Positions 22 to 35,803 of a DNA stretch of 35,803 nucleotides are shown here, piece by piece. This DNA is from a virus (lineage: Duplodnaviria > Caudoviricetes). The stretch is from positions 1 through 35,803 of the IMG/VR virus record IMGVR_UViG_3300030376_003609, one strand, 5' to 3'. Under the pieces are notes generated by a model, which did no database searches, was not told the DNA's origin, and worked only from the letters and a program-made list of their open reading frames with translations. Every line of letters starts with the position of its first letter. The first letter of the stretch is position 1. Both the position numbers and the translations under genes were made by a program.

Positions 22-990
22 ATGGTTTTAAACATTAACGGCACTACTGGTATTTCTGGGGTTGACGGGTCAGCTTCCGCACCAGCAGTAACAGGAACAG
101 ATAGTAATACAGGTATAAATTTTGCATCTGATACTGTCAATATAAATACAGGTGGATCGACTAGGGCAACTGTTGATAGTGCTGGAAGATTACTTTTAGG
201 AACCACTACAGAAGGACATACTAGTGGTGATGATTTAACTATTGCAACATCTGGCACTACTGGCATAACACTTCGTTCTGGCACTTCAGATGGTGGAAGA
301 ATATTCTTCTCTGATGGTACAAGTGGTGATGATGAATATAGAGGAGTTGTTGGTTACGATCATTCCACAAATCATTTATATTTTTCAACTAATGCTTCAG
401 AACGTATGCGTGTTACAAGTGCGGGAAAATTTTATGTAGGTACTACAAACGGAGCTTTTGCTAATGATGCTACACAACACGCTGCTATTGTTAATTCTGC
501 TGCCAATGAATATACTCTTGCTTTAAGAAACAATCTTGATAGTTCAGATGGTAGAGGTTTATTAGTTGCTGCTGGTAATGGAAGCGGTGGTCGTTTAATA
601 TTTTTTGAAAGATTTGATGGTGGAACATTAGGAAGTATTACAGTAGCCAGTTCAAGTTCTGTTTCATATAATACTTCTTCTGATTATAGGCTCAAAGAAA
701 ATGTAACTACCATAACTGATGGCATAACAAGATTAAAAACATTAAAACCTTCTAAATTTAACTTTATAGGTGATTCTAAAACTGTTGATGGATTTTTAGC
801 ACATGAAGTAACACCAGTAGTACCAGAGGCTATTACAGGAACAAAAGATGAAGTTGATTCTGACAATAATCCTGTTTATCAAGGTATAGATCAAAGTAAA
901 CTTGTACCTTTACTTACTGCTGCATTACAGGAAGCTGTTGCTAAAATTGAAGTATTGGAAACAAAAGTAGCTGCATTGGAGGCTGGATAA
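22..990 (+). CDS. Tail fibre protein with C-terminal intramolecular chaperone (Peptidase_S74-like)
   Basis: Gly/Ser/Thr-rich fibre repeats (ERMRVTSAG, RATVDSAGRLLLGTT); S|DYRLKEN cleavage motif, GFLAHEV and IDQSKLVPLLTAALQE coiled-coil end. Confidence 0.9.
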   Translation: MVLNINGTTGISGVDGSASAPAVTGTDSNTGINFASDTVNINTGGSTRATVDSAGRLLLGTTTEGHTSGDDLTIATSGTTGITLRSGTSDGGRIFFSDGTSGDDEYRGVVGYDHSTNHLYFSTNASERMRVTSAGKFYVGTTNGAFANDATQHAAIVNSAANEYTLALRNNLDSSDGRGLLVAAGNGSGGRLIFFERFDGGTLGSITVASSSSVSYNTSSDYRLKENVTTITDGITRLKTLKPSKFNFIGDSKTVDGFLAHEVTPVVPEAITGTKDEVDSDNNPVYQGIDQSKLVPLLTAALQEAVAKIEVLETKVAALEAG

Positions 991-18810: not shown

Positions 18811-21066
18811 ATGAGTATTCCAGAGGTATTTTTTAGGGAAACTATTGATATAAATAGATACAGTAATGCCGTATCAGTAGATCTAGTTAGAACTTACAAT
18901 GACGTTATTTTACTTGCAGCAAGAAAGCTCAATGCAATAAATATCAGACAGGCAAAGGCTGGAGAAGGTGTAGTCATAGCACCGCAAACTAAAAAAAGAT
19001 TGAGGGCAATCATAGCTCAGTCAAAAAGTAGTCTGGATAAATGGTCTAAGACTTCAACAAAGAAGATGATAAAAGAGATTGAAGGTTTGGCAAAGGTACA
19101 GGCTGGATTTATAGAGGGCGAACTGAAAAAAGCTGTAAAATCAGGAAATATTCCCATCAATTCAGTAGCTGTTAGTTCTAAATATGCAGAGTCGTTTGTC
19201 ACAACAGATCCCACAAAGGTAAACATATTTACAAGCAAGCAATTTACAGAAGATGATTTTAAGAAGTTTGGCTCTGGAAAGTTTGAACTTACTGCAAGAC
19301 AAGGTGCAATGCAGACCTTACCAAATGGAGAAACAGTAGAGAAAGCATTTAGAGGTATAGCAACAAGACAACAGGAGGGTTTAGCTAGGACTATCAGACA
19401 GGGTGTATTTAGTGGAGAGTCAACACAGCAGATAGCAAGTCGAATGATAGGTAGGCTGGAGTTTGGACAGAGGGGAAGCGTTAGACAGATAGCACAAGCT
19501 GGTGGTGAACTTACAAAATTAGCTAATCATCAGATACAAACTATTGTCAGAACATCTGTAAACCAAGTCCAGAACCAAGCATCACAGGCTGTTTATGCAG
19601 CTAACAGTAAGGTCGCACCAAAGTATGAATATGTTGCAACGCTTGATTCAAAAACCAGTCCAATATGTAAAAGACTTGATGGTAGAAAGTTTGAATACAA
19701 CAAAGGCCCTACACCGCCACAGCATTTTAACTGCCGATCTACTACTGTTCCTGTTGTTGATTATGCAGGGTTAAAGAAACAAAAAGGATTTGAGGATCTA
19801 ACACCGCCACCCAAAGGCAAAGTTGTAACCCGACCTACAGGAGAGGGGACTGGTAGAGTACCACAGGACACTCAGTATGGTGACTGGCTTTTAGGGCAAG
19901 ATAAGAAACTAAAGGTCAAGACTTTAGGTAATGAACAGAAGGTAAGATATTTTGAACGCTTGGCAAAGAAGGAAGGGTCAGGTCAGAAGGCTATAAGAAA
20001 GATGGTGAGGGAAGATGGAAGCGAAAGAAGTTTGAAGGACTTGGAGAGATTGTATGGTAAGCCCAGTGATATAACGATCAAGATACCAACGCCTAAGCCT
20101 GTAACTAAACCTGTGGCGTTTGAGAGAAGGCTAGTTGACTCAAGTCCAGAGCAACTAAGAAAAGCTGGCAAAGGTTTGATTGATGAAGTGGGTGGACTTG
20201 ATGTTGATAAACTTAAAAAACTTGAGGCTGAATTTAAAGTTGCTGCGAAAGAGGCAGCTAGAGATATGAGTGCTTTTGATAAATTTGAAAAAGTTAAAAA
20301 GAATTACTTTGATTTCAGAGAAAAATTTGAAACTAGATTAACTACTTTGAGAAATAAAATGCTTGAAACGACTCTAAATGATGCACAAGTAAATAAATAT
20401 ATTAAAAATACAAAGATTACAACATGGAACGCTGCTCAGAAAACAGAAATCAGAGGTCAGTTAGATGAATATATAAGAATGTTTAATGGTAATGGTTTTA
20501 TTGATGCTGAAAATGGAGTTCCAGCTATAACAAAAATTGGTAAAGCAAGCAGAGCATCTAATTCACACTGGAAAGGTTCTATTACTACACAACTTAATAG
20601 ACAAGGAAAGATTAGTAAATCTACAACATTCCACGAAATCACTCATTCAGTGGAAGTTATGAACCCTAAACTAAATAATTATATGAATGAATGGAAATTT
20701 AAAAAGGGATTTACCGATAATGCAAAGATAAAGGAAGTTATCCATAACAAAAGAGCTTTTCCTGAGTCTGGTGCAATTGACAGGGCTGCTGGTAAGCCAA
20801 TTTATAAACTCAAAGATATAACAAATATTAGGTATCAACCAAGAGAAAAAGCATTTGTTGACAAGTATTTAGATCCTTATATGGGGAAAAAATATGAACC
20901 ATATGATTTTTCAAGATTTGGAATAAAAGAAAAACTTGAATCATCTGAAGTTTTAACAATGACTGTCCAACAGTTTGGAAAAGTAGAAAATATGGCTAAA
21001 TTATATAGAGAACACCCAGAACTGTTTGAGTTAATTGTAGGTATGTCTAGGGCAAAGGGTCTATAG
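18811..21066 (+). CDS. MuF/SPP1 gp7-family minor head protein with C-terminal HEXXH metallopeptidase-like extension
   Basis: TIVRT, YVATLDSKTSPIC..LDG, PPQHFNCRST; Pro-rich linker at ~20062-20118; FHEITH (H608, H612) and EVLTM (E713). Confidence 0.9.
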   Translation: MSIPEVFFRETIDINRYSNAVSVDLVRTYNDVILLAARKLNAINIRQAKAGEGVVIAPQTKKRLRAIIAQSKSSLDKWSKTSTKKMIKEIEGLAKVQAGFIEGELKKAVKSGNIPINSVAVSSKYAESFVTTDPTKVNIFTSKQFTEDDFKKFGSGKFELTARQGAMQTLPNGETVEKAFRGIATRQQEGLARTIRQGVFSGESTQQIASRMIGRLEFGQRGSVRQIAQAGGELTKLANHQIQTIVRTSVNQVQNQASQAVYAANSKVAPKYEYVATLDSKTSPICKRLDGRKFEYNKGPTPPQHFNCRSTTVPVVDYAGLKKQKGFEDLTPPPKGKVVTRPTGEGTGRVPQDTQYGDWLLGQDKKLKVKTLGNEQKVRYFERLAKKEGSGQKAIRKMVREDGSERSLKDLERLYGKPSDITIKIPTPKPVTKPVAFERRLVDSSPEQLRKAGKGLIDEVGGLDVDKLKKLEAEFKVAAKEAARDMSAFDKFEKVKKNYFDFREKFETRLTTLRNKMLETTLNDAQVNKYIKNTKITTWNAAQKTEIRGQLDEYIRMFNGNGFIDAENGVPAITKIGKASRASNSHWKGSITTQLNRQGKISKSTTFHEITHSVEVMNPKLNNYMNEWKFKKGFTDNAKIKEVIHNKRAFPESGAIDRAAGKPIYKLKDITNIRYQPREKAFVDKYLDPYMGKKYEPYDFSRFGIKEKLESSEVLTMTVQQFGKVENMAKLYREHPELFELIVGMSRAKGL

Positions 21067-27955: not shown

Positions 27956-30010
27956 GTGGCAGTTTCTAATGTAGAACTCAGAGTCAATGCTAGTGGTGCG
28001 ACTAGATCATTAAGAAATGTACAAAATCAAACTGTTCAATTACAAAGATCTTTTGGAGGTTTACAAACTCAAGTTGCTAGAGTTGCATCTGCAATAGCAT
28101 TAGTTGGTGCATCAAGATTTGTTTTTTTTAAAACAGCAGAATTAGAAACACAAAGAAAAAGTTTAGAAGTTCTTACTGGATCTGTCAAAGACACAAATAA
28201 AATAATAAAAGAGCTTCAAGAATTTGGTGCTGTCACACCTTTTACAAGTAGTCAATTAATAGAGCAAACAAAGAGATTAAAAGCTTTTGGTTTTGAAACA
28301 GAAGAACTAGTTGATACTACAAAGAGATTATCTGAGGTTGCTGGTGCTACTGGTGCTGATTTAGAAGGTATAGCAACCGCATTCGGACAAATAAGGGCAA
28401 AAGGTAAATTGCAACAAGAGGAAAATTTACAGTTATTAGAAAGAGGAGTTGACATAACAAGTGAACTTGAAAAATTAACAAACAAACAAGGAGAGGCTTT
28501 TGCCTCTGCGATGCGTAAAGGTGAAATAGGTGCTGATCTTGTAAATCAGGCATTAATAAACTTAACTAATGAAGGCGGTGCATTTTTTGGTGGAGCAACT
28601 GCACAGGCAACAACGTTAAATGGTAAATTATCTACATTACAAGATTCTTTTGATACTTTAGGAAGAACTGTTGGACAAGTATTGAGTCCAGCTTTAAAAA
28701 CTGCCATTACTGCTTTTTCAGATTTAACTTTAAGTACTAGTAATTTTTTACAAACCTCAGAAGGAAAAACGGCTTTAATTTTTACAGGTGTTGCCTTTGC
28801 TGTTAAAGGAGTTGTTGCTGCAAACGCTTTGTTAAAAGCTTCACTTACTGTTTTGACTGCGAAATTCGCTGCTACAAGTGCTGGAGCAATTGCGTTGGCA
28901 AAAGCACAAGCAACAGCATCACTATCAACAAAAGCATTAGCTATAGCAACTGGTGGTTTAAGTTTAGCTTTAAGTGCTTTACCATTAGTAGCTATTGCTG
29001 GAGGGTTTGCATTTTTGACAAATGCAATTATTAAAGCAATAAATAAACAAAAAGAATTTAATGAACTACTAGATGGAGGTAGTGTTGAAGAATTTAAGTC
29101 AAAAATTAAAGAAACAGAAAAAGAAATTTCAACTTTAGAAGAAAAAATCGCAAAAATTACAAAAAATCAAGGAGATTTTGTCATGGTTTCTGGTGCGGAA
29201 GCTTTTGAAGTAGATTTAAAAAGAGCAAACGATCAATTAAAAGAATTAAAAAAAGGTTTAGAAAAAGCAGAAGAATTAAGTTTAGCAAATGAATTTAAAA
29301 CAGCAGCTAAAAATATACATGAACAAAAGAAAGGACTTGAACAAATAATTGAAAGATCAAAAATAAGAACTGAAGAGGGAAAAATTCAATTTGATATAGA
29401 ACAAAGAAGGTTGGAGTTGCAAAAAGAATTTGGAGTTGAATTAGGAAATGAACTTTTAAAAAAAGAACTGGCACTAAAACCTTTACAAAAGCAAGTTGAT
29501 AAAATTAAGGAATCTGAAGAAGCTGCTAAAAGATTATCTGAAGCTTTTAAAAAAATAGGAGATGATATTGCAACAGGTGTAAGTGATGCTTTAACAGATG
29601 CGATCATGCAGACAAAATCTTTAGCAGAGGTAGCAAACGCTTTATTAAACGATATTGCTAGACAACTCCTAAGACTTGGTGTTAATACACTATTATCTAG
29701 TACATTTGGTGGAATATTTAAGAGTTTACCTACCTTTGCCACTGGTGGAAGGCCAACTGTAGGGCAGCCTTCAATAGTAGGAGAAAAAGGCCCAGAATTA
29801 TTTGTTCCATCAAGGGCTGGCACTATTATTCCAAATAATCAATTAGGTGGAGGTAGCATGACAAATAATATTGTTGTTAATGTTGATGTAAGTGGAGGTG
29901 TTGACGCACAGGGAGGAGAACAAGAAGGCAGAGAACTTGGAAGACTTATTGCGGTGGCGGTACAATCTGAAATAATACAACAAAAAAGAGCAGGGGGTTT
30001 ATTAGCATAA
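27956..30010 (+). CDS. Tail tape measure protein
   Basis: TPF......, A.GQIRAKGKLQQEENLQL.ERG; Ala-rich hydrophobic middle; FATGG....VGEKGPELFVP. Confidence 0.92.
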   Translation: MAVSNVELRVNASGATRSLRNVQNQTVQLQRSFGGLQTQVARVASAIALVGASRFVFFKTAELETQRKSLEVLTGSVKDTNKIIKELQEFGAVTPFTSSQLIEQTKRLKAFGFETEELVDTTKRLSEVAGATGADLEGIATAFGQIRAKGKLQQEENLQLLERGVDITSELEKLTNKQGEAFASAMRKGEIGADLVNQALINLTNEGGAFFGGATAQATTLNGKLSTLQDSFDTLGRTVGQVLSPALKTAITAFSDLTLSTSNFLQTSEGKTALIFTGVAFAVKGVVAANALLKASLTVLTAKFAATSAGAIALAKAQATASLSTKALAIATGGLSLALSALPLVAIAGGFAFLTNAIIKAINKQKEFNELLDGGSVEEFKSKIKETEKEISTLEEKIAKITKNQGDFVMVSGAEAFEVDLKRANDQLKELKKGLEKAEELSLANEFKTAAKNIHEQKKGLEQIIERSKIRTEEGKIQFDIEQRRLELQKEFGVELGNELLKKELALKPLQKQVDKIKESEEAAKRLSEAFKKIGDDIATGVSDALTDAIMQTKSLAEVANALLNDIARQLLRLGVNTLLSSTFGGIFKSLPTFATGGRPTVGQPSIVGEKGPELFVPSRAGTIIPNNQLGGGSMTNNIVVNVDVSGGVDAQGGEQEGRELGRLIAVAVQSEIIQQKRAGGLLA

Positions 30011-30357
30011 TGGCTACTTTTCCAGACATCAAGCCTTCTTATGGGTCAAGAAAAACTAATGCACCTATCAACAGGGTTGTAAGATTTGCTGATGGGTTTG
30101 AGCAACGCATTGTTTTTGGTCTTGCACAGAATCAAAATCCAAAAGAATTTAATTTTACATTCAATGTTTCTGAAACTGATGCTGATACAATCGAAACTTT
30201 TTTAGATGCAAGGGCAAATGATCAGGCTAGTTTTGACTACACACCAGCAGGGGAAAGTTCTTCAATGAAGTTTGTTTGTGATACTTGGACAAAATCAATT
30301 CCATACAATAACAGGGCAACTATTAATGCAACATTTAGAGAGGTGTTTGAACCATGA
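30010..30357 (+). CDS. Minor tail protein M-like (distal tail)
   Basis: V.FADGFEQR..GL, FL.AR....SF.YTP, ATFREVFEP. Confidence 0.88.
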   Translation: MATFPDIKPSYGSRKTNAPINRVVRFADGFEQRIVFGLAQNQNPKEFNFTFNVSETDADTIETFLDARANDQASFDYTPAGESSSMKFVCDTWTKSIPYNNRATINATFREVFEP

Positions 30358-31343
30358 GTACTGCCCCAATAATTACAGATTTACAAAAGATAAATCCCTC
30401 TGCGATTATTGAGCTTTTTACTTTAGAAACAACTGTTGCTTTACATGGCTCTGCTCAAACTTATAGATTTCACAATGGAACAAACTTAAATAACAATGGA
30501 GATATAGTCTGGGCTGGCAATACTTATATTAAATTACCAATTACAGCAGAGGGGTTTGCTTATCAACGTGGGCAGATTCCTAGACCTACACTGACAGTTA
30601 GTAATGCTCTTGGAACTATTACAGCTATCTTGTTAAATGTTAATCAGGTAACGACAGGAAATGATCTGACAGGCTGCACTGTAACTAGGATAAGGACACT
30701 TGCAAGATATCTTGATAATGTGAATTTTCCAGTTACTACAACAAGTTCTACAACAACAACAACAATTGCCGACCCAGCAGATGCTGAATCTGTAACTTAC
30801 ACAGTTACTGTGGCAAACGTAGGTGGGATAAATATATTTTTAATAAATGGTGTTAATAACCCTGTTATAACAATGAAACGTGGGTCAACTTATATATTTA
30901 ATCAATCTGATAGCTCAAACGTTGGACACCCTTTGAGAATTAAATCTGATGCTGGAGGACAGCAGACTACAACAAATGCTGGGACTCTTGGAACAGATGC
31001 CACAGTCACTTATCAGCCAGCTTATCCTGATGCTCCTAGTGATTTGAGATATTACTGCACAGTTCATGGAAATGCTATGGGTAACACAATCACAATGAAT
31101 AATCCAAATACAACAACTCAAGAAACAACGACAACCTCAACACAGCAAGTCAATCCTTTAGGAACACCAGACCCAACAGCAGAATTTCCAAGAGAAATAT
31201 ATAAAATCGACAGAAAATCATCAGAAACAAGAGATATTGTAGAGTTTGAACTTGCTGCCCCTTTTGATCTTGCTGGAGTAAAAAGCCCTAAACGTCTTTG
31301 TACTAGAGACAATTTTCCAAGTATCGGAACATTTATTGCATGA
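30354..31343 (+). CDS. Minor tail protein L-like with inserted cupredoxin-like domain
   Basis: IELF.L, PI.AEGF, PRPTLTVSN, VTRIRTLARYLD..NF, DP.AEFP, IDRK..E....VEFELA; insert at ~30735-31148. Confidence 0.88.
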   Translation: MSTAPIITDLQKINPSAIIELFTLETTVALHGSAQTYRFHNGTNLNNNGDIVWAGNTYIKLPITAEGFAYQRGQIPRPTLTVSNALGTITAILLNVNQVTTGNDLTGCTVTRIRTLARYLDNVNFPVTTTSSTTTTTIADPADAESVTYTVTVANVGGINIFLINGVNNPVITMKRGSTYIFNQSDSSNVGHPLRIKSDAGGQQTTTNAGTLGTDATVTYQPAYPDAPSDLRYYCTVHGNAMGNTITMNNPNTTTQETTTTSTQQVNPLGTPDPTAEFPREIYKIDRKSSETRDIVEFELAAPFDLAGVKSPKRLCTRDNFPSIGTFIA

Positions 31344-32041
31344 ACTGGAAAGACGCTGCTCTTGCTCATGCGAAAGACCAAGACCCTAAAGAATCTTGCG
31401 GACTTTTATTAAATATAAAAGGTAAAGAAAGATATTTTCCTTGTAAAAATTTATCAATGACAGCTTTTCAGTGTTTTATTATTGACCCAGAGGATTATAT
31501 AAGGGCAGATAATACAGGAGATATTATAGCTGTGGTTCATAGCCACCCTGTTACACCACCAGTAGCAAGTCAATCCGATAAGGTAGCCTGTGAACAAAGC
31601 GGCCTTGTTTGGCACATAGTAAACCCTAAAACGGAGTCATGGGGTTATTTAAAGCCAACAGGTTATAAAGCTCCCATTCTTGGCAGAGAGTGGGCTTGGG
31701 GAATCACAGATTGCTATACCTTAGTTCGTGATTGGTATAAAGAAAAACTAAATATAAATTTAATTGACTGGCATAGACCTACAACACTGGAAGATTTCAA
31801 CAAAAATCCAATGTTTGAAAAATGTGCAGAAGAAACAGGTTTTAGAGAACTTAATCCTGATGAAAAATTAATAAATGGAGATTTGTTATTTATGTCGATT
31901 TTTTCCAATAATTTGAATCATGTGGCAATTTTCGTAGATGGTGATGTTTTACACCATTTAACAGATAGACTTAGTTGCATAGAGCCATACTCTGAATGGT
32001 TGCTAAAATGCACAGGTAAGAGGTTGCGTTATGTTGCGTAA
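31340..32041 (+). CDS. Tail tip assembly protein K-like (JAB/MPN + NlpC/P60)
   Basis: P.ESCG, HSHP......S.SD; DCYTLVRDWY, NHVAIF, LHH. Confidence 0.92.
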   Translation: MNWKDAALAHAKDQDPKESCGLLLNIKGKERYFPCKNLSMTAFQCFIIDPEDYIRADNTGDIIAVVHSHPVTPPVASQSDKVACEQSGLVWHIVNPKTESWGYLKPTGYKAPILGREWAWGITDCYTLVRDWYKEKLNINLIDWHRPTTLEDFNKNPMFEKCAEETGFRELNPDEKLINGDLLFMSIFSNNLNHVAIFVDGDVLHHLTDRLSCIEPYSEWLLKCTGKRLRYVA

Positions 32042-32648
32042 AATAAAACTATATGGAGAGTTAGCCAATTTTATTGGCCATAAAGAGTTTGAGATAAAGG
32101 CTGATACTTTGAGTCATGCAATTAGTTTTTTAGTGAATAATTTTGAAGGAGTAGAAAAGTATATGAATCCTAAATATTATCAGGTGAAAGTAGGTGATTA
32201 TGCTATTGATGAAAGTGAAATAGATCACCCTATAGGTCAACAGGATATACATTTTGTACCTGTCATACAAGGTGCTGGAGGTAATGTAGGTAAGATATTG
32301 CTTGGGGCTGCTCTTATTGCTGTTGGTATGGGTGCTTTCGGTGCTTTTTCAGGTAAGGCTGTTTCATTTGGAGCTAAAGGAATAGGCTTTTCTAAAGCGG
32401 CTCTTGGAGCAAAAGCTTCATTTGGTATTGGTGCGGCTTTGGTTCTTTCTGGTGTCAGTGATATGTTGTTTCCTGTGCCAAAAATGCCTGAGTTTTCTAG
32501 TGAACAAGACCCCAAGTTGTCATATAGTTTTGGAGGAACTCAAAACACTTCGAGGGCTGGAACTCCAGTGCCTGTTGTCTATGGCGAGATAATTACTGGA
32601 TCAGTGGTTATCAGTGGAGCTATTGACACCCAGCAGGTGAGAGCATGA
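32031..32648 (+). CDS. Tail assembly protein I-like
   Basis: IKLYGELA, IHFVPVIQGAG, SYSFGG.QNT...G.PVPVVYGE..TGS.VIS. Confidence 0.9.
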   Translation: MLRKIKLYGELANFIGHKEFEIKADTLSHAISFLVNNFEGVEKYMNPKYYQVKVGDYAIDESEIDHPIGQQDIHFVPVIQGAGGNVGKILLGAALIAVGMGAFGAFSGKAVSFGAKGIGFSKAALGAKASFGIGAALVLSGVSDMLFPVPKMPEFSSEQDPKLSYSFGGTQNTSRAGTPVPVVYGEIITGSVVISGAIDTQQVRA

Positions 32649-35600
32649 CAAAACCTAAAATTATAAGGGGTTCTGGAGGAGGAAGCCCACCACCACCACC
32701 GCAGCCAACAAGAACACCAGACACTTTACACAGTAGGCAGTTTGCAACTTTTCTTGACCTTATTTCTGAGGGGGAGATAGAAGGCTTTGCTTCAGCATCA
32801 AAGGAAGGACTTACAAAAGGAACAACTGCATATAACAACTCTTGCCTTAAAGATGTAATCCTTAACGATACTCCTGTTTTAAAAGCTACTGCAAACTCAG
32901 CAAATCCAGTTGCAACAGATTTTAATTTTCAAGATGTAACTTTTAATCCTCGCTTTGGTACGTCTGGACAAACAAAAGTTGAGGGTATTGAAAGTAGTTC
33001 CTCTGTTACAGCAGTTGGAGTAGTAGTTACAGCTTCAAGCCCTGTTACAAGACAGATAACAAATTCAAATGTTGACGCTGCGAATATCACAATAACTTTT
33101 CCTCAAATTCAAAAAGCTACAACAAAAGGAGATTTGCTTGGTTCATCTGTTTCACTCAAGATTTCTGTTCAATATAATTCTGGGGGTTTCAGCGATATTA
33201 TTACTGACACAATTACTGGAAGGACTGCTGATGCCTACCAGAGAGATTACAGAGTTGAGTTAACAGGTGCTTTTCCTGTTGATATTAGAGTCTCAAGAGT
33301 CACCGCAGATAGTACAGATGCAAGTTTAGTTGATGCTTTTCAATGGACAAGTTTAGGTGAGATTATAGATGACGCAAATACTTATGATAATAGTGCTTAC
33401 GCTGCAATCAGGCTTGACTCAATGCAGTTTAGTTCTATTCCATCAAGAAAATATAGAATTAGAGGAGTCAAAGTAAGAATCCCAGCCGCAGGAGCAAACG
33501 GCTCTGGTACACCAAACGTTGACAGTGCAACTGGCCGCATAATTTACCCAGACGGCTATATATTTAATGGTGTCATGGGTTCTGCTGTTTGGACTTCTTG
33601 CCCAGCAATGATATTACTTGATCTTCTTACTAACACAAGATATGGATTTGGAGATCATATAACAGATAGCAGCCTTGATTTATTTTCCTTTGTAACCGCA
33701 AGTAAGTTTGCAAACACTTTAGTTGATGATGGACAGGGAGGACAAGAAGCAAGATTTAGCTGCAATGTAAATATTCAAGGCAGTGCGGAGGCTTTTGATC
33801 TTATTAATGATCTTGCAGGGGTCATGCGTTGTATGCCTATCTGGTCTGCTGGTAGTATTTCTCTTAAACAGGACAGTCCAGCTTCAGCCTCATACCTTTT
33901 TAATTTGTCCAACATAACCAGTGATGGATTTACATATTCTGGTAGCAGCCTTAAACAACGTCACAGTGTAGTTTCTGTGTCTTACTTTAATATGGACACT
34001 CAAGACATAGATTTTGAGGTTGTAGAAGATGCCAACTTGATAAGTAAGATAGGCACAAGTATCAAGCAAGTAAAAGCTTTTGCCTGTACTTCAAGAGGAC
34101 AAGCGGCCAGATTAGGTCGGGCAATCCTTTTCGGGGAGGCAAATGAAACTGAGGTTTGCAGTTTTACAACTTCGATAGATAGCGGCATTGTAGTTAGGCC
34201 GTCAGCAATCATAGAAATAGCAGACCCTTTAAGGAGTGGTCTAAGAAGAGGTGGCAAAATTTCTTCAGTTACATCAACGACTGTTGTTACTGTTGATGAT
34301 TCCACAAACACTGACTTGCCATCTACAAACAACGCAAAGCTGTCTGTGGTGCTTCCAGATGGAACAGTGGAGACAAAGGATATAGTTTCCGTCTCTGGTG
34401 CAACAATCACTGTGGCAAGTGCCTTTTCTCAAGCACCAAATGTTAATGCAAACTGGTTGATTTCAGATGACACTGTGCAGTCTCAATTATTTAGAGTTAT
34501 TAGTGTTGAGGAAGTTGACGGCATAAACTATTCAATTACGGCTTTATCTTATGTAAATGAAAAGTATGCGTTTATTGAAGATGGTTCAACACTGCCGACA
34601 AGAACAGTATCAATACTAAATGAACTTAAAGATCCTCCTACTGCTTTACAGGCTGAAGAAAAATTAGTTGAGATAAATAATCAGGCGGTATCTAAACTTA
34701 TTGTCAGTTGGCAGCCTATTGTCGGTGTTACGCAGTATCAGGTTAACTATAGATTCAACAATGGTAACTTTGTTTCTACAACAGTTTCTTCTCCTGATTT
34801 TGAGATATTCAATACTGATATTGGAACGTATGAGTTTCAAATATTTAGCTATAATGCTGCATTGCAGACAAGTGCGACTTCTGCTGATCTGACTTTCAAT
34901 GCTGTTGGTAAAACTGCATTACCATCAAATGTTACTGGATTATCAGCCGAACCAATAAATGAAAAATTAGTAAGATTACGTTGGAATTTATCTACAGATT
35001 TAGATGTTACTCATGGAGGTAGGGTGTATGTCAGACATTCTCCTCTCGTAGACGGAAGCGGATCCTTTACTAATAGTACTGATTTGATTCAAGCGTTAGC
35101 TGGTAATACAACAACAGCAGAAGTTCCATATCTTGAAGGTGAATATATTTTAAAATTTCAAGATGACGGTGGCAGATTTTGTGCAGGAGAGACAAGTGTA
35201 ATTCTTGAACTGCCAGATAATTTAGCTCCACTTATTACACAGACTAGGAGAGAGGATACTGATAGTCCTAAATTCCAAGGAACAAAAACTAATGTTGATT
35301 TTGATGCAGTTACAAATACTTTAAATTTAGTTGGTGGTGGTAACTTTGATGCTATTACAGACTTTGATCTTGTTGGATCATTAGATGACTTTGGTGGAAT
35401 CGTTTCTGAAGGTACTTATGATTTTGGAGGAACTGCTGGTGGGGACACTTTAGATTTAGGTGGTGTATTTAGTCTTGATTTAAAACGTCACTTCTTGACA
35501 GAAGGTTTCTATCCATCAGATTTATTTGATTCAAGAGGTTTGATTGATGATATTACAGACTTTGATGGACTTACAGCTACAGAAGTTAACGCTGAAATGT

Positions 35601-35803
35601 TAGTAAGAGTCACACAGGACAATCCATCTGGATCTCCCACTTATACTGACTTTCAAACTTTTGCTAATGGAACGTATAAAGGAAGAGGATTTCAATTCAG
35701 AGCAAAACTTACAAGTAATGATATTGCACAGGATATAAAAGTTTCTCAGCTAGGTTATACAGCATCTTTACAGAGAAGAACAGAACAAGGTAATGTTATT
35801 GCA
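32645..35803 (+). CDS. Central tail fibre / tip attachment protein J-like (truncated by window end)
   Basis: ATG 32645: MTKPKIIRGSGGG...DLISEGEIEG; later WTSCPAMILLDLL.N.RYG.G, EARFSCN, CTSRGQAARLG; FN3-like segments; reads in frame at the window end. Confidence 0.92.
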   Translation, partial: MTKPKIIRGSGGGSPPPPPQPTRTPDTLHSRQFATFLDLISEGEIEGFASASKEGLTKGTTAYNNSCLKDVILNDTPVLKATANSANPVATDFNFQDVTFNPRFGTSGQTKVEGIESSSSVTAVGVVVTASSPVTRQITNSNVDAANITITFPQIQKATTKGDLLGSSVSLKISVQYNSGGFSDIITDTITGRTADAYQRDYRVELTGAFPVDIRVSRVTADSTDASLVDAFQWTSLGEIIDDANTYDNSAYAAIRLDSMQFSSIPSRKYRIRGVKVRIPAAGANGSGTPNVDSATGRIIYPDGYIFNGVMGSAVWTSCPAMILLDLLTNTRYGFGDHITDSSLDLFSFVTASKFANTLVDDGQGGQEARFSCNVNIQGSAEAFDLINDLAGVMRCMPIWSAGSISLKQDSPASASYLFNLSNITSDGFTYSGSSLKQRHSVVSVSYFNMDTQDIDFEVVEDANLISKIGTSIKQVKAFACTSRGQAARLGRAILFGEANETEVCSFTTSIDSGIVVRPSAIIEIADPLRSGLRRGGKISSVTSTTVVTVDDSTNTDLPSTNNAKLSVVLPDGTVETKDIVSVSGATITVASAFSQAPNVNANWLISDDTVQSQLFRVISVEEVDGINYSITALSYVNEKYAFIEDGSTLPTRTVSILNELKDPPTALQAEEKLVEINNQAVSKLIVSWQPIVGVTQYQVNYRFNNGNFVSTTVSSPDFEIFNTDIGTYEFQIFSYNAALQTSATSADLTFNAVGKTALPSNVTGLSAEPINEKLVRLRWNLSTDLDVTHGGRVYVRHSPLVDGSGSFTNSTDLIQALAGNTTTAEVPYLEGEYILKFQDDGGRFCAGETSVILELPDNLAPLITQTRREDTDSPKFQGTKTNVDFDAVTNTLNLVGGGNFDAITDFDLVGSLDDFGGIVSEGTYDFGGTAGGDTLDLGGVFSLDLKRHFLTEGFYPSDLFDSRGLIDDITDFDGLTATEVNAEMLVRVTQDNPSGSPTYTDFQTFANGTYKGRGFQFRAKLTSNDIAQDIKVSQLGYTASLQRRTEQGNVIA

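What the first reader, a model, noticed from the sequence alone, without database searches (positions are those of the whole stretch)
30735..31343. gpL tail-tip protein lacks the Fe-S cysteines and carries an inserted type-1-copper-like domain
Seen: between the normally adjacent gpL motifs YLD..NF and NP..DP.AEFP lies an insert of ~138 aa bounded by Thr-rich linkers (TTTSSTTTTT; TTTQETTTTST). It contains GH192PL and YYC235TVH238GNAM242G. The protein ends KRLCTRDNFPSIGTFIA with a single C-terminal Cys. Known: lambda gpL binds a [4Fe-4S] cluster through four C-terminal Cys; cupredoxins such as plastocyanin bind Cu through His...Cys-x2-His-xn-Met. Inference: an iron-free tail tip that displays a possible blue-copper domain on a flexible stalk, perhaps for receptor binding, metal mimicry or redox sensing in iron-poor water. 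The loss and the gain may be independent events.
Basis: partly seen in the sequence, partly recalled or inferred. Interest (0 to 1): 0.8.

Follow-up and report, generated by a model that had tools for sequence, protein, structure and literature searches.

The report
Swappable copper-type domain in tail-tip hub
In this marine virus, a close relative of Prochlorococcus siphoviruses, the tail-tip hub protein gpL has lost its iron-sulfur domain and carries an optional inserted domain predicted to have the blue-copper-protein fold with four conserved likely metal ligands, which probably acts as a swappable, likely metal-bound attachment aid; the loss and the insert look like separate events.

Summary
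Observation confirmed. gpL (30354-31343) carries a 137-aa insert. Its domain is predicted with high confidence (pLDDT 96) as a cupredoxin (best Z 10.2) and keeps His192/Cys235/His238/Met242 in 120 of 120 close relatives and 162 of 174 copies in distant non-repeat proteins. All four Fe-S cysteines were removed by an internal ~54-aa deletion; the remaining Cys316 is not one of them. The phage is MED4-184/P-HS2-like (capsid 90% identical). The two oddities are uncoupled one way: 192-aa gpLs up to 99% identical in the core lack both the insert and the Fe-S domain, and insert carriers do not form one clade (AU p=2e-5). None of 69 Fe-S-bearing gpLs had the insert. The Thr linkers are predicted as a β-ribbon stalk, not flexible coil. 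The same loop holds a CBM-like domain in other gpLs, so it is a display site. Best reading: an optional, likely metal-bound attachment module, like 'evolved Dits'. Copper binding and function are untested. Fe-S-less gpLs were already reported. This scan found the same module before in cyanophage fibres and baseplates; placement in gpL and its on/off polymorphism are what this locus adds.

The parts
30354..31343 (+). gpL tail-tip hub protein gene, 329 aa
30354..30731 (+). gpL HDI beta-sandwich, N-terminal part (res 1-126)
   Evidence: aligns to lambda gpL 18-119; HDI = lambda res 1-166 (PMC10721106)
30741..31151 (+). optional 137-codon insert, absent from 192-aa relatives
30732..30770 (+). Thr-rich stalk strand 1 (res 127-139), predicted beta
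30771..31109 (+). cupredoxin-fold domain (res 140-252)
30927..30929 (+). His192, likely first ligand (GHPL)
31056..31079 (+). Cys235-x2-His238-x3-Met242 likely ligand loop
31110..31148 (+). Thr-rich stalk strand 2 (res 253-265), predicted beta
31152..31283 (+). gpL HDI C-terminal part (res 267-310)
31284..31340 (+). 19-aa remnant of the Fe-S domain: both ends kept, ~54 aa with all four ligand Cys deleted near res 319/320; C316 is a non-ligand position
30010..30357 (+). gpM distal tail protein (context)
   Evidence: PF05939
31340..32041 (+). gpK JAB + NlpC/P60 (context); no match to the Fe-S domain profile
32031..32648 (+). gpI (context), no Cys
32645..35803 (+). gpJ central fibre, runs off the window (context)

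Best explanation
This is an Fe-S-less gpL hub of a MED4-184-like marine siphovirus that carries, in a loop inferred to face outward, an optional domain predicted to fold as a cupredoxin and likely binding one metal ion (probably copper) through His192, Cys235, His238 and Met242; it most likely serves as an accessory attachment or surface-contact module. Shown: the insert, the conserved ligands, the internal deletion of the Fe-S domain, and the on/off pattern among near-identical gpLs. Predicted: the fold, and a two-stranded stalk formed by the Thr-rich segments. Inferred: three copies per virion (gpL is a trimer in lambda); outward display; swapping of insert-plus and insert-minus alleles by recombination; a metal that stabilises the domain or forms part of its binding face; and a role like that of carbohydrate-binding inserts in 'evolved Dits', i.e. 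helping adsorption to some hosts without being essential. The Fe-S loss is likely the older, lineage-wide event and is not compensated by the insert.
For: Fold: model pLDDT 96, pTM 0.89. All listed Foldseek PDB hits are cupredoxin-fold copper proteins. VIA Z 10.2, rmsd 2.5 A over 101 residues to the N-terminal domain (24-134) of Hyphomicrobium nitrite reductase. In the Foldseek-free search the top 33 rows are cupredoxin-fold chains by title (the family assignment is my knowledge). Relative P0129 passes the PF00127 cut-off (22.3 vs 21.2 bits); an Atlas neighbour cluster has PF00127 in 17% of members. Ligands: 120 of 120 close relatives. 162 of 174 copies outside six giant repeat proteins keep all four; H192, M242, H238 and C235 are among the eight most conserved residue positions; 56 of 67 giant-repeat copies lost H, C and H together. 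The motifs recur in named isolates P-SSM4 gp9, ACG-2014d gp9, S-TIM66, pelagiphage Baldr and Melnitz fibres. dN/dS 0.14 in the domain vs 0.11-0.13 in the core, 65 distinct CDS. Optional: 192-aa relatives, P0273 179/192 identical; 88 of 117 insert carriers have an insert-less core at >=95% identity; AU test rejects one clade, p=2.3e-5 on a random 25+25; 16-17 state changes, at least 4 forced by starred branches. Neighbours gpM/K/I/J are equally similar to the window in both allele groups. Display site: the same loop holds a ~180-aa other domain in Fe-S-bearing P0426, P0469 and P0493, CBM4/9-like by Atlas features (0.92; PF02018 in 56% of that cluster). The module sits on T7-like fibres, T4-like baseplate and virion proteins. 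Precedent: evolved Dits (PMC7291167).
Against: No metal-binding or adsorption data. Ligand distances could not be measured because no coordinates are returned. Hits were collected with the query itself, which favours retention of H/C/M. Within close relatives non-ligand M174 is also invariant, so only the distant set discriminates. The six giant proteins were set aside after I saw the output. The window domain itself has no Pfam or NCBIfam hit, and profile similarity to two phage plastocyanins is not significant (prob 0.2-1.8%). The module also occurs in a non-tail virion protein (SU10 adaptor-like P0251), which fits a host-attachment role less well. Strict ligand retention is more than an adhesion module would need and could mean chemistry. 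0 of 69 Fe-S-bearing gpLs have the insert, so dependence of the gain on the loss is not excluded. Outward position and stalk pairing are inferred; full-length pTM is 0.58.
Confidence: 0.45

Rival explanations
1. Redox-active blue-copper site: the domain cycles Cu(II)/Cu(I) on the virion, protecting it from oxidants or light, or exchanging electrons with a host envelope partner as an infection cue.
For: Complete H/C/H/M set kept across thousands of module families (2436 representatives at E<=0.001; conservation); closest folds are electron-transfer cupredoxins; found on many different virion parts.
Against: No redox partner is evident in the window; the domain is dispensable in near-identical phages; a shared fold shows no function.
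Confidence: 0.2
2. Metal bait or carrier: the domain scavenges seawater copper and uses it to dock on a host metal-uptake protein or delivers or removes copper at the cell surface, a copper version of the Ferrojan-horse idea.
For: Position at the tail tip; concentrated in marine phages of cyanobacteria, Pelagibacter and Methylophilales; the iron version is described in PMC11705849.
Against: Type-1 sites bury the metal except for one His edge (my knowledge); hosts are unrelated, so a common receptor is doubtful; no receptor data.
Confidence: 0.15
3. The site holds Zn or another ion, or is purely structural; copper is not the physiological metal because virions assemble in the copper-poor cytoplasm. 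The module is a stabilised spacer or decoration.
For: Ligand-less copies persist in giant repeat proteins (56 of 67), so the fold can work without the site; cytoplasmic Zn loading of cupredoxins is known (recalled, no call).
Against: Axial Met kept in 169 of 174 copies with type-1 spacing; mature virions sit in oxic seawater where exchange is possible (inference).
Confidence: 0.15
4. The copper-type domain functionally replaces the lost Fe-S cluster (iron-sparing swap).
For: All 135 parsed insert carriers are Fe-S-less, and 0 of 69 Fe-S-bearing gpLs carry it.
Against: 111 parsed Fe-S-less gpLs have no insert, including isolate MED4-184, whose record gave no match to the domain; no domain in the flanks of 80 insert-less loci; insert and deletion are at different ends of the protein; nesting may reflect a single origin.
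Confidence: 0.05

Closest known systems
Lambda gpL / tail-tip protein L family (PF05100, TIGR01600; PDB 8IYK_L, T1 9L9P_J, F2 pyocin 25VF_7)
   Same: Gene order, HDI beta-sandwich, sequence and fold match.
   Different: Lacks all four cluster Cys (lambda C173, C182, C205, C212; PMC10721106) through an internal ~54-aa deletion; has a 137-aa insert after the position of lambda Phe118.
gpL of Prochlorococcus phages MED4-184 / MED4-117 / P-HS2
   Same: Same short C-terminal end (18 vs 19 aa), no Fe-S domain; capsid protein 90%, terminase 74.5% identical.
   Different: 190 aa, 46% identical, no insert. Synechococcus relatives KBS-S-2A, S-H1 and S-CBS4 keep the four Cys.
Type-1 cupredoxins: N-terminal domain of Hyphomicrobium nitrite reductase (2DV6), small-laccase domains, rusticyanin, plastocyanin, amicyanin (PF00127)
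   Same: Predicted fold (Z 10.2, 9.7, 7.2, 6.0-6.1, 5.8) and His...Cys-x2-His-xn-Met order; a forced global alignment puts all four ligands in register with phage plastocyanin (not significant).
   Different: 10-21% identity; HP rather than HN after the first His; loop C-x2-H-x3-M vs x4 in the two phage plastocyanins; fused in a virion protein; no partner known; metal untested.
Evolved Dits and Tals of Gram-positive siphophages (PMC7291167)
   Same: Accessory domain inserted in a loop of a core tail-tip protein and present in only part of a phage group.
   Different: Here the host protein is gpL and the insert is a cupredoxin-fold domain, not a carbohydrate-binding module; binding untested.
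Unnamed marine-phage cupredoxin-like module (within PHROG 677, 708, 30742; weakly Pfam PF25489 At5g54830-like)
   Same: Same domain and ligands.
   Different: Usually in fibres, baseplate or other virion proteins; here in the siphovirus hub, as an on/off allele.

Membership tests
Lambda-like gpL | HDI beta-sandwich homologous to lambda gpL | tested here: met
Lambda-like gpL | Position between gpM and gpK-gpI-gpJ | tested here: met
Lambda-like gpL | C-terminal four-Cys [4Fe-4S] domain | tested here: not met
   deleted; so a gpL homologue but not an Fe-S gpL
Lambda-like gpL | Trimer in the virion tip | not tested
   inferred from lambda (PMC10721106)
Type-1 (blue) copper cupredoxin | Cupredoxin beta-sandwich fold | tested here: met
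   predicted model
Type-1 (blue) copper cupredoxin | His, then Cys-xn-His-xn-Met loop before the last strand, conserved | tested here: met
Type-1 (blue) copper cupredoxin | Ligands converge with type-1 geometry | not testable with these tools
   no coordinates returned; implied only by fold and by a non-significant register alignment
Type-1 (blue) copper cupredoxin | Cu bound, ~600 nm band, small EPR hyperfine coupling, electron transfer | not testable with these tools
   needs experiment
PF00127 Copper-bind | Score above the Pfam gathering cut-off | tested here: not met
   window domain has no hit at E<=1; one of 88 scanned relatives (P0129, three copies) passes
Evolved tail-tip protein with accessory binding module | Optional domain inserted in a loop of a core tip protein | tested here: met
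Evolved tail-tip protein with accessory binding module | Insert binds the host surface | not testable with these tools
   needs binding assay

The most novel reading that the evidence does not exclude
Abundant Prochlorococcus-type siphoviruses build an iron-free hub and switch, allele by allele, three true blue-copper centres onto stalks at the tail tip. With the same module on myovirus and podovirus tails, ocean phages would be a class of copper metalloprotein particles that use the metal in host recognition or redox chemistry. The natural insert-plus and insert-minus pairs make this directly testable.
Probability: 0.25. Interest if true: 0.85.

Novelty: new variant of a known kind. Interest (0 to 1): 0.52.

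Why it matters
First, the function of the gpL Fe-S cluster is stated to be uncharacterised (PMC10721106). This lineage is a natural clean deletion with cultured members (MED4-184, P-HS2), so the cluster is dispensable at least there. Second, a cupredoxin-fold domain with a full ligand set on a virion was not found described in my paper searches. If it holds copper, viruses are part of the marine copper-ligand pool and may use copper at infection. Third, this locus offers the best control for that widespread module: near-isogenic phages (core up to 99% identical) with and without it at one defined site.

Tried and rejected
Frameshift or misassembly at the 3' end: rejected. Cys-rich domain moved to another gene: a two-sequence profile found its own sources (and S-CBS4) but nothing significant in the window or in loci L001-L080 and L085-L244; the genome is 94% complete, so the stretch beyond gpJ is unseen. 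Sequence search of PDB with the domain alignment gave nothing significant (best E 0.07; a copper oxidase at E 2.6). Derivation from phage plastocyanin petE: no significant similarity. A second copy in this genome: none. HxH iron motifs in the window's fibre genes or the visible part of gpJ: none, too little to call the virion iron-free. No RNA holder listed. Laid contigs showed no joint skipping exactly the insert among the rows shown. A first AU test (p=1e-9) included rows picked after seeing the tree, so it was repeated on a random draw. Paper searches for the module gave nothing relevant: (listings only; PMC8115048 passages irrelevant). Searches were listings only. PMC12557496 had only a reference hit. 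Tam et al. 2013 is not held. Subscription journals and supplements were not seen and could mention the domain. Earlier-findings look-ups by sequence and place were empty. No complex prediction was run, since no binding partner is claimed.

Full report
Context. The window is a 35.8-kb virus record, 94% complete, with the gene set of a lambda-like-tailed siphovirus. The major capsid protein is 90.4% and the terminase 74.5% identical to Prochlorococcus phages MED4-184, MED4-117 and P-HS2; Synechococcus phages KBS-S-2A and S-H1 come next. A Prochlorococcus host is therefore likely but inferred. The best sequencing runs are marine metagenomes.

Observation. ORF 30354-31343 encodes a 329-aa gpL. The ligand pattern appeared in 17 of 100,000 shuffles of the insert. 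Contigs from two other studies span both junctions and the stop codon. The 120 best of 7424 protein hits (7999 candidates scored) all keep the HP and CxxHxxxM motifs, and their printed C-termini are the same short end.

The missing Fe-S domain. [quoted passage not shown] Aligning the ends of Fe-S-bearing relatives (P0400, P0493) with this lineage shows a 73-aa tail reduced to 19 aa by an internal deletion of about 54 aa that keeps both ends. The surviving Cys corresponds to a fifth Cys in those relatives, which aligns with lambda Met168 (my count), so no ligand remains. The loss is lineage-wide. Of 120 hits of at most 221 aa, 91 parsed as complete; 89 have one C-terminal Cys, one has two and one none. 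16 more complete ones missed my pattern and 13 lacked the end motif, most being fragments. Of 80 insert-less loci, 78 have the 19-aa tail and 2 did not parse; 42 of 80 MED4-184-like loci parsed, all with an 18-aa Cys-free tail. KBS-S-2A, S-H1 and S-CBS4 keep the four Cys. A profile of the Cys domain found no relocated copy in the window or in related loci. Fe-S-less gpL homologues are not new: PMC13243795 (passages) says they were reported by Tam et al. 2013 and describes a truncated gpL in phage Jersey. PMC10721106 calls the cluster universal, so the texts disagree. I could not read Tam et al.. The remnant tail is low-confidence in the monomer model and probably folds on gpJ (inference).

The insert. 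Residues 140-252 fold with pLDDT 96 on a 57-sequence alignment. Foldseek returns copper nitrite reductase, two-domain laccases and rusticyanin. VIA-align gives Z 10.2, rmsd 2.5 A over 101 residues to residues 24-134 of 2DV6. In the wide search of 48,161 chains, 3 reached Z 8 and the top 33 rows are cupredoxin-fold proteins by title. The Z values are moderate, but the uniform list makes the fold call safe. The module is widespread: 2436 representatives at E<=0.001 and 276 phage records, mostly cyanophages, also pelagiphages and Methylophilales phages. It lies in T4-like gp9 and baseplate proteins, T7-like fibres and other virion proteins. In the best 150 representatives I found 260 copies, 241 with all four columns filled. 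165 keep H/C/H/M: 162 of 174 outside six giant repeat proteins (set aside after viewing) and 3 of 67 inside them, where 56 lost H, C and H together. 142 of 150 proteins have at least one full site. The four ligands are among the eight most conserved residue positions. Caveats: query-based retrieval favours these residues, the window domain itself hits no Pfam or NCBIfam model, and similarity to two phage plastocyanins is not significant although a forced alignment puts the four ligands in register. dN/dS is 0.14 in the domain and 0.11-0.13 in the core (65 distinct CDS from 68 recovered of 81).

Stalk. In the full-length model (mean pLDDT 82, pTM 0.58) the Thr-rich segments are strands 127-139 and 253-265 at pLDDT 84-95. 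In 86 homologues that matched my pattern their lengths were 14/15 (75), 15/15 (8) and 11/12-13 (3), shortening together. This suggests a two-stranded ribbon; the pairing itself is not shown. Foldseek on this model returns lambda gpL, T1 gpL and the cupredoxins.

The insert is an on/off allele. Insert-less 192-aa gpLs reach 93% identity to the window's core. 88 of 117 carriers have an insert-less core at 95% or more, up to 99.4%. Of 366 sequences 315 parsed: Fe-S-minus with insert 135, Fe-S-minus without 111, Fe-S-plus without 67, Fe-S-plus with another insert 2. These counts reflect my search design, not natural frequencies. On a tree of 121 cores the insert needs 16-17 changes, at least 4 forced by well-supported branches, and the window's nearest rows are insert-less. 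A single clade of carriers is rejected (p=2.3e-5, random 25+25). Insert-less alleles have the same short loop as Fe-S-bearing gpLs, which points to exchange by recombination rather than repeated exact deletion (inference). Divergent carriers about 50-70% identical to P0273 exist, so the insert is old within the Fe-S-less lineage. Neighbouring tail genes do not differ between allele groups. No Fe-S-plus gpL carried the insert (0 of 69), which may be a single-origin effect.

A display site. The same loop holds a different ~180-aa domain in three Fe-S-bearing gpLs, resembling CBM4/9 by language-model features (0.92, a lead only). Other relatives have B-lectin and further inserts inside the Fe-S domain, or N-terminal Ig-like additions. 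gpL is thus decorated as 'evolved Dits' are, whose inserts bind the host with lower affinity than the main receptor-binding protein (PMC7291167, passages).

Mechanism and odds. My estimates: cupredoxin fold about 0.95; a metal at the site about 0.85; copper as the metal on virions about 0.55. Role: accessory attachment 0.45, redox 0.2, copper bait or carrier 0.15, structural or Zn 0.15, replacement of Fe-S 0.05. The Ferrojan-horse idea for iron is described in PMC11705849 (passages); extending it to copper is speculation.

Novelty. Ten paper searches were run; six aimed at this module found no description, within a library that lacks most subscription journals. The scan's earlier notes report the module in cyanophage fibres, baseplates and a SAR86 protein; these are AI notes, not independent support. 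A look-up on gpL returned only the ordinary lambda case. What this locus adds is the placement in the hub protein, the Fe-S-less background and a natural presence/absence pair. Verdict: new variant of a known kind, interest 0.52.

Noticed in passing
L081:4411-4983 (MED4-184 gpM): gpM of MED4-184-like phages is 189-191 aa vs about 115 aa here, with a ~75-aa Thr/Ser/Val-rich insert; one insert-plus locus also has a 189-aa gpM. A second swappable tail-tip decoration.
   Followed up: partly
L081:5552-6520: In MED4-184 one 322-aa ORF joins a JAB domain to a gpI-like C-terminal part, with no NlpC/P60 hit; the window keeps separate gpK and gpI.
   Followed up: partly
proteins P0394-P0509; L084:2504-3901: Many Fe-S-bearing gpL relatives carry large inserts within the Fe-S domain (B-lectin PF01453, endosialidase-barrel-like, unknown); S-CBS4 has about 230 aa there.
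   Followed up: partly
proteins P0426, P0469, P0493: CBM4/9-like ~180-aa domain in the same gpL loop as the copper-type insert.
   Followed up: partly
proteins P0125, P0392, P0393, P0407, P0416, P0430: Insert-carrying gpLs with N-terminal extensions: Big_5 Ig-like, or phrog_20658 / weak CBM5/12-like modules.
   Followed up: partly
proteins P0127, P0139, P0221, P0254, P0201: Giant proteins of 1447-3815 aa built from 8-26 tandem copies of the module, nearly all without the ligands.
   Followed up: no
window 22-990: Fibre-like protein ending in an intramolecular chaperone domain (Peptidase_S74); with ORFs to 3019 it probably continues the tail region past the window's end (permuted genome, inferred).
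   Followed up: no
window 18811-21066: 751-aa head morphogenesis (Mu gpF-like) protein with a long unannotated extension.
   Followed up: no
BFVD entry K7XRW7: A 329-aa viral protein 80% identical over the domain is already in UniProt/BFVD, with no name shown.
   Followed up: no
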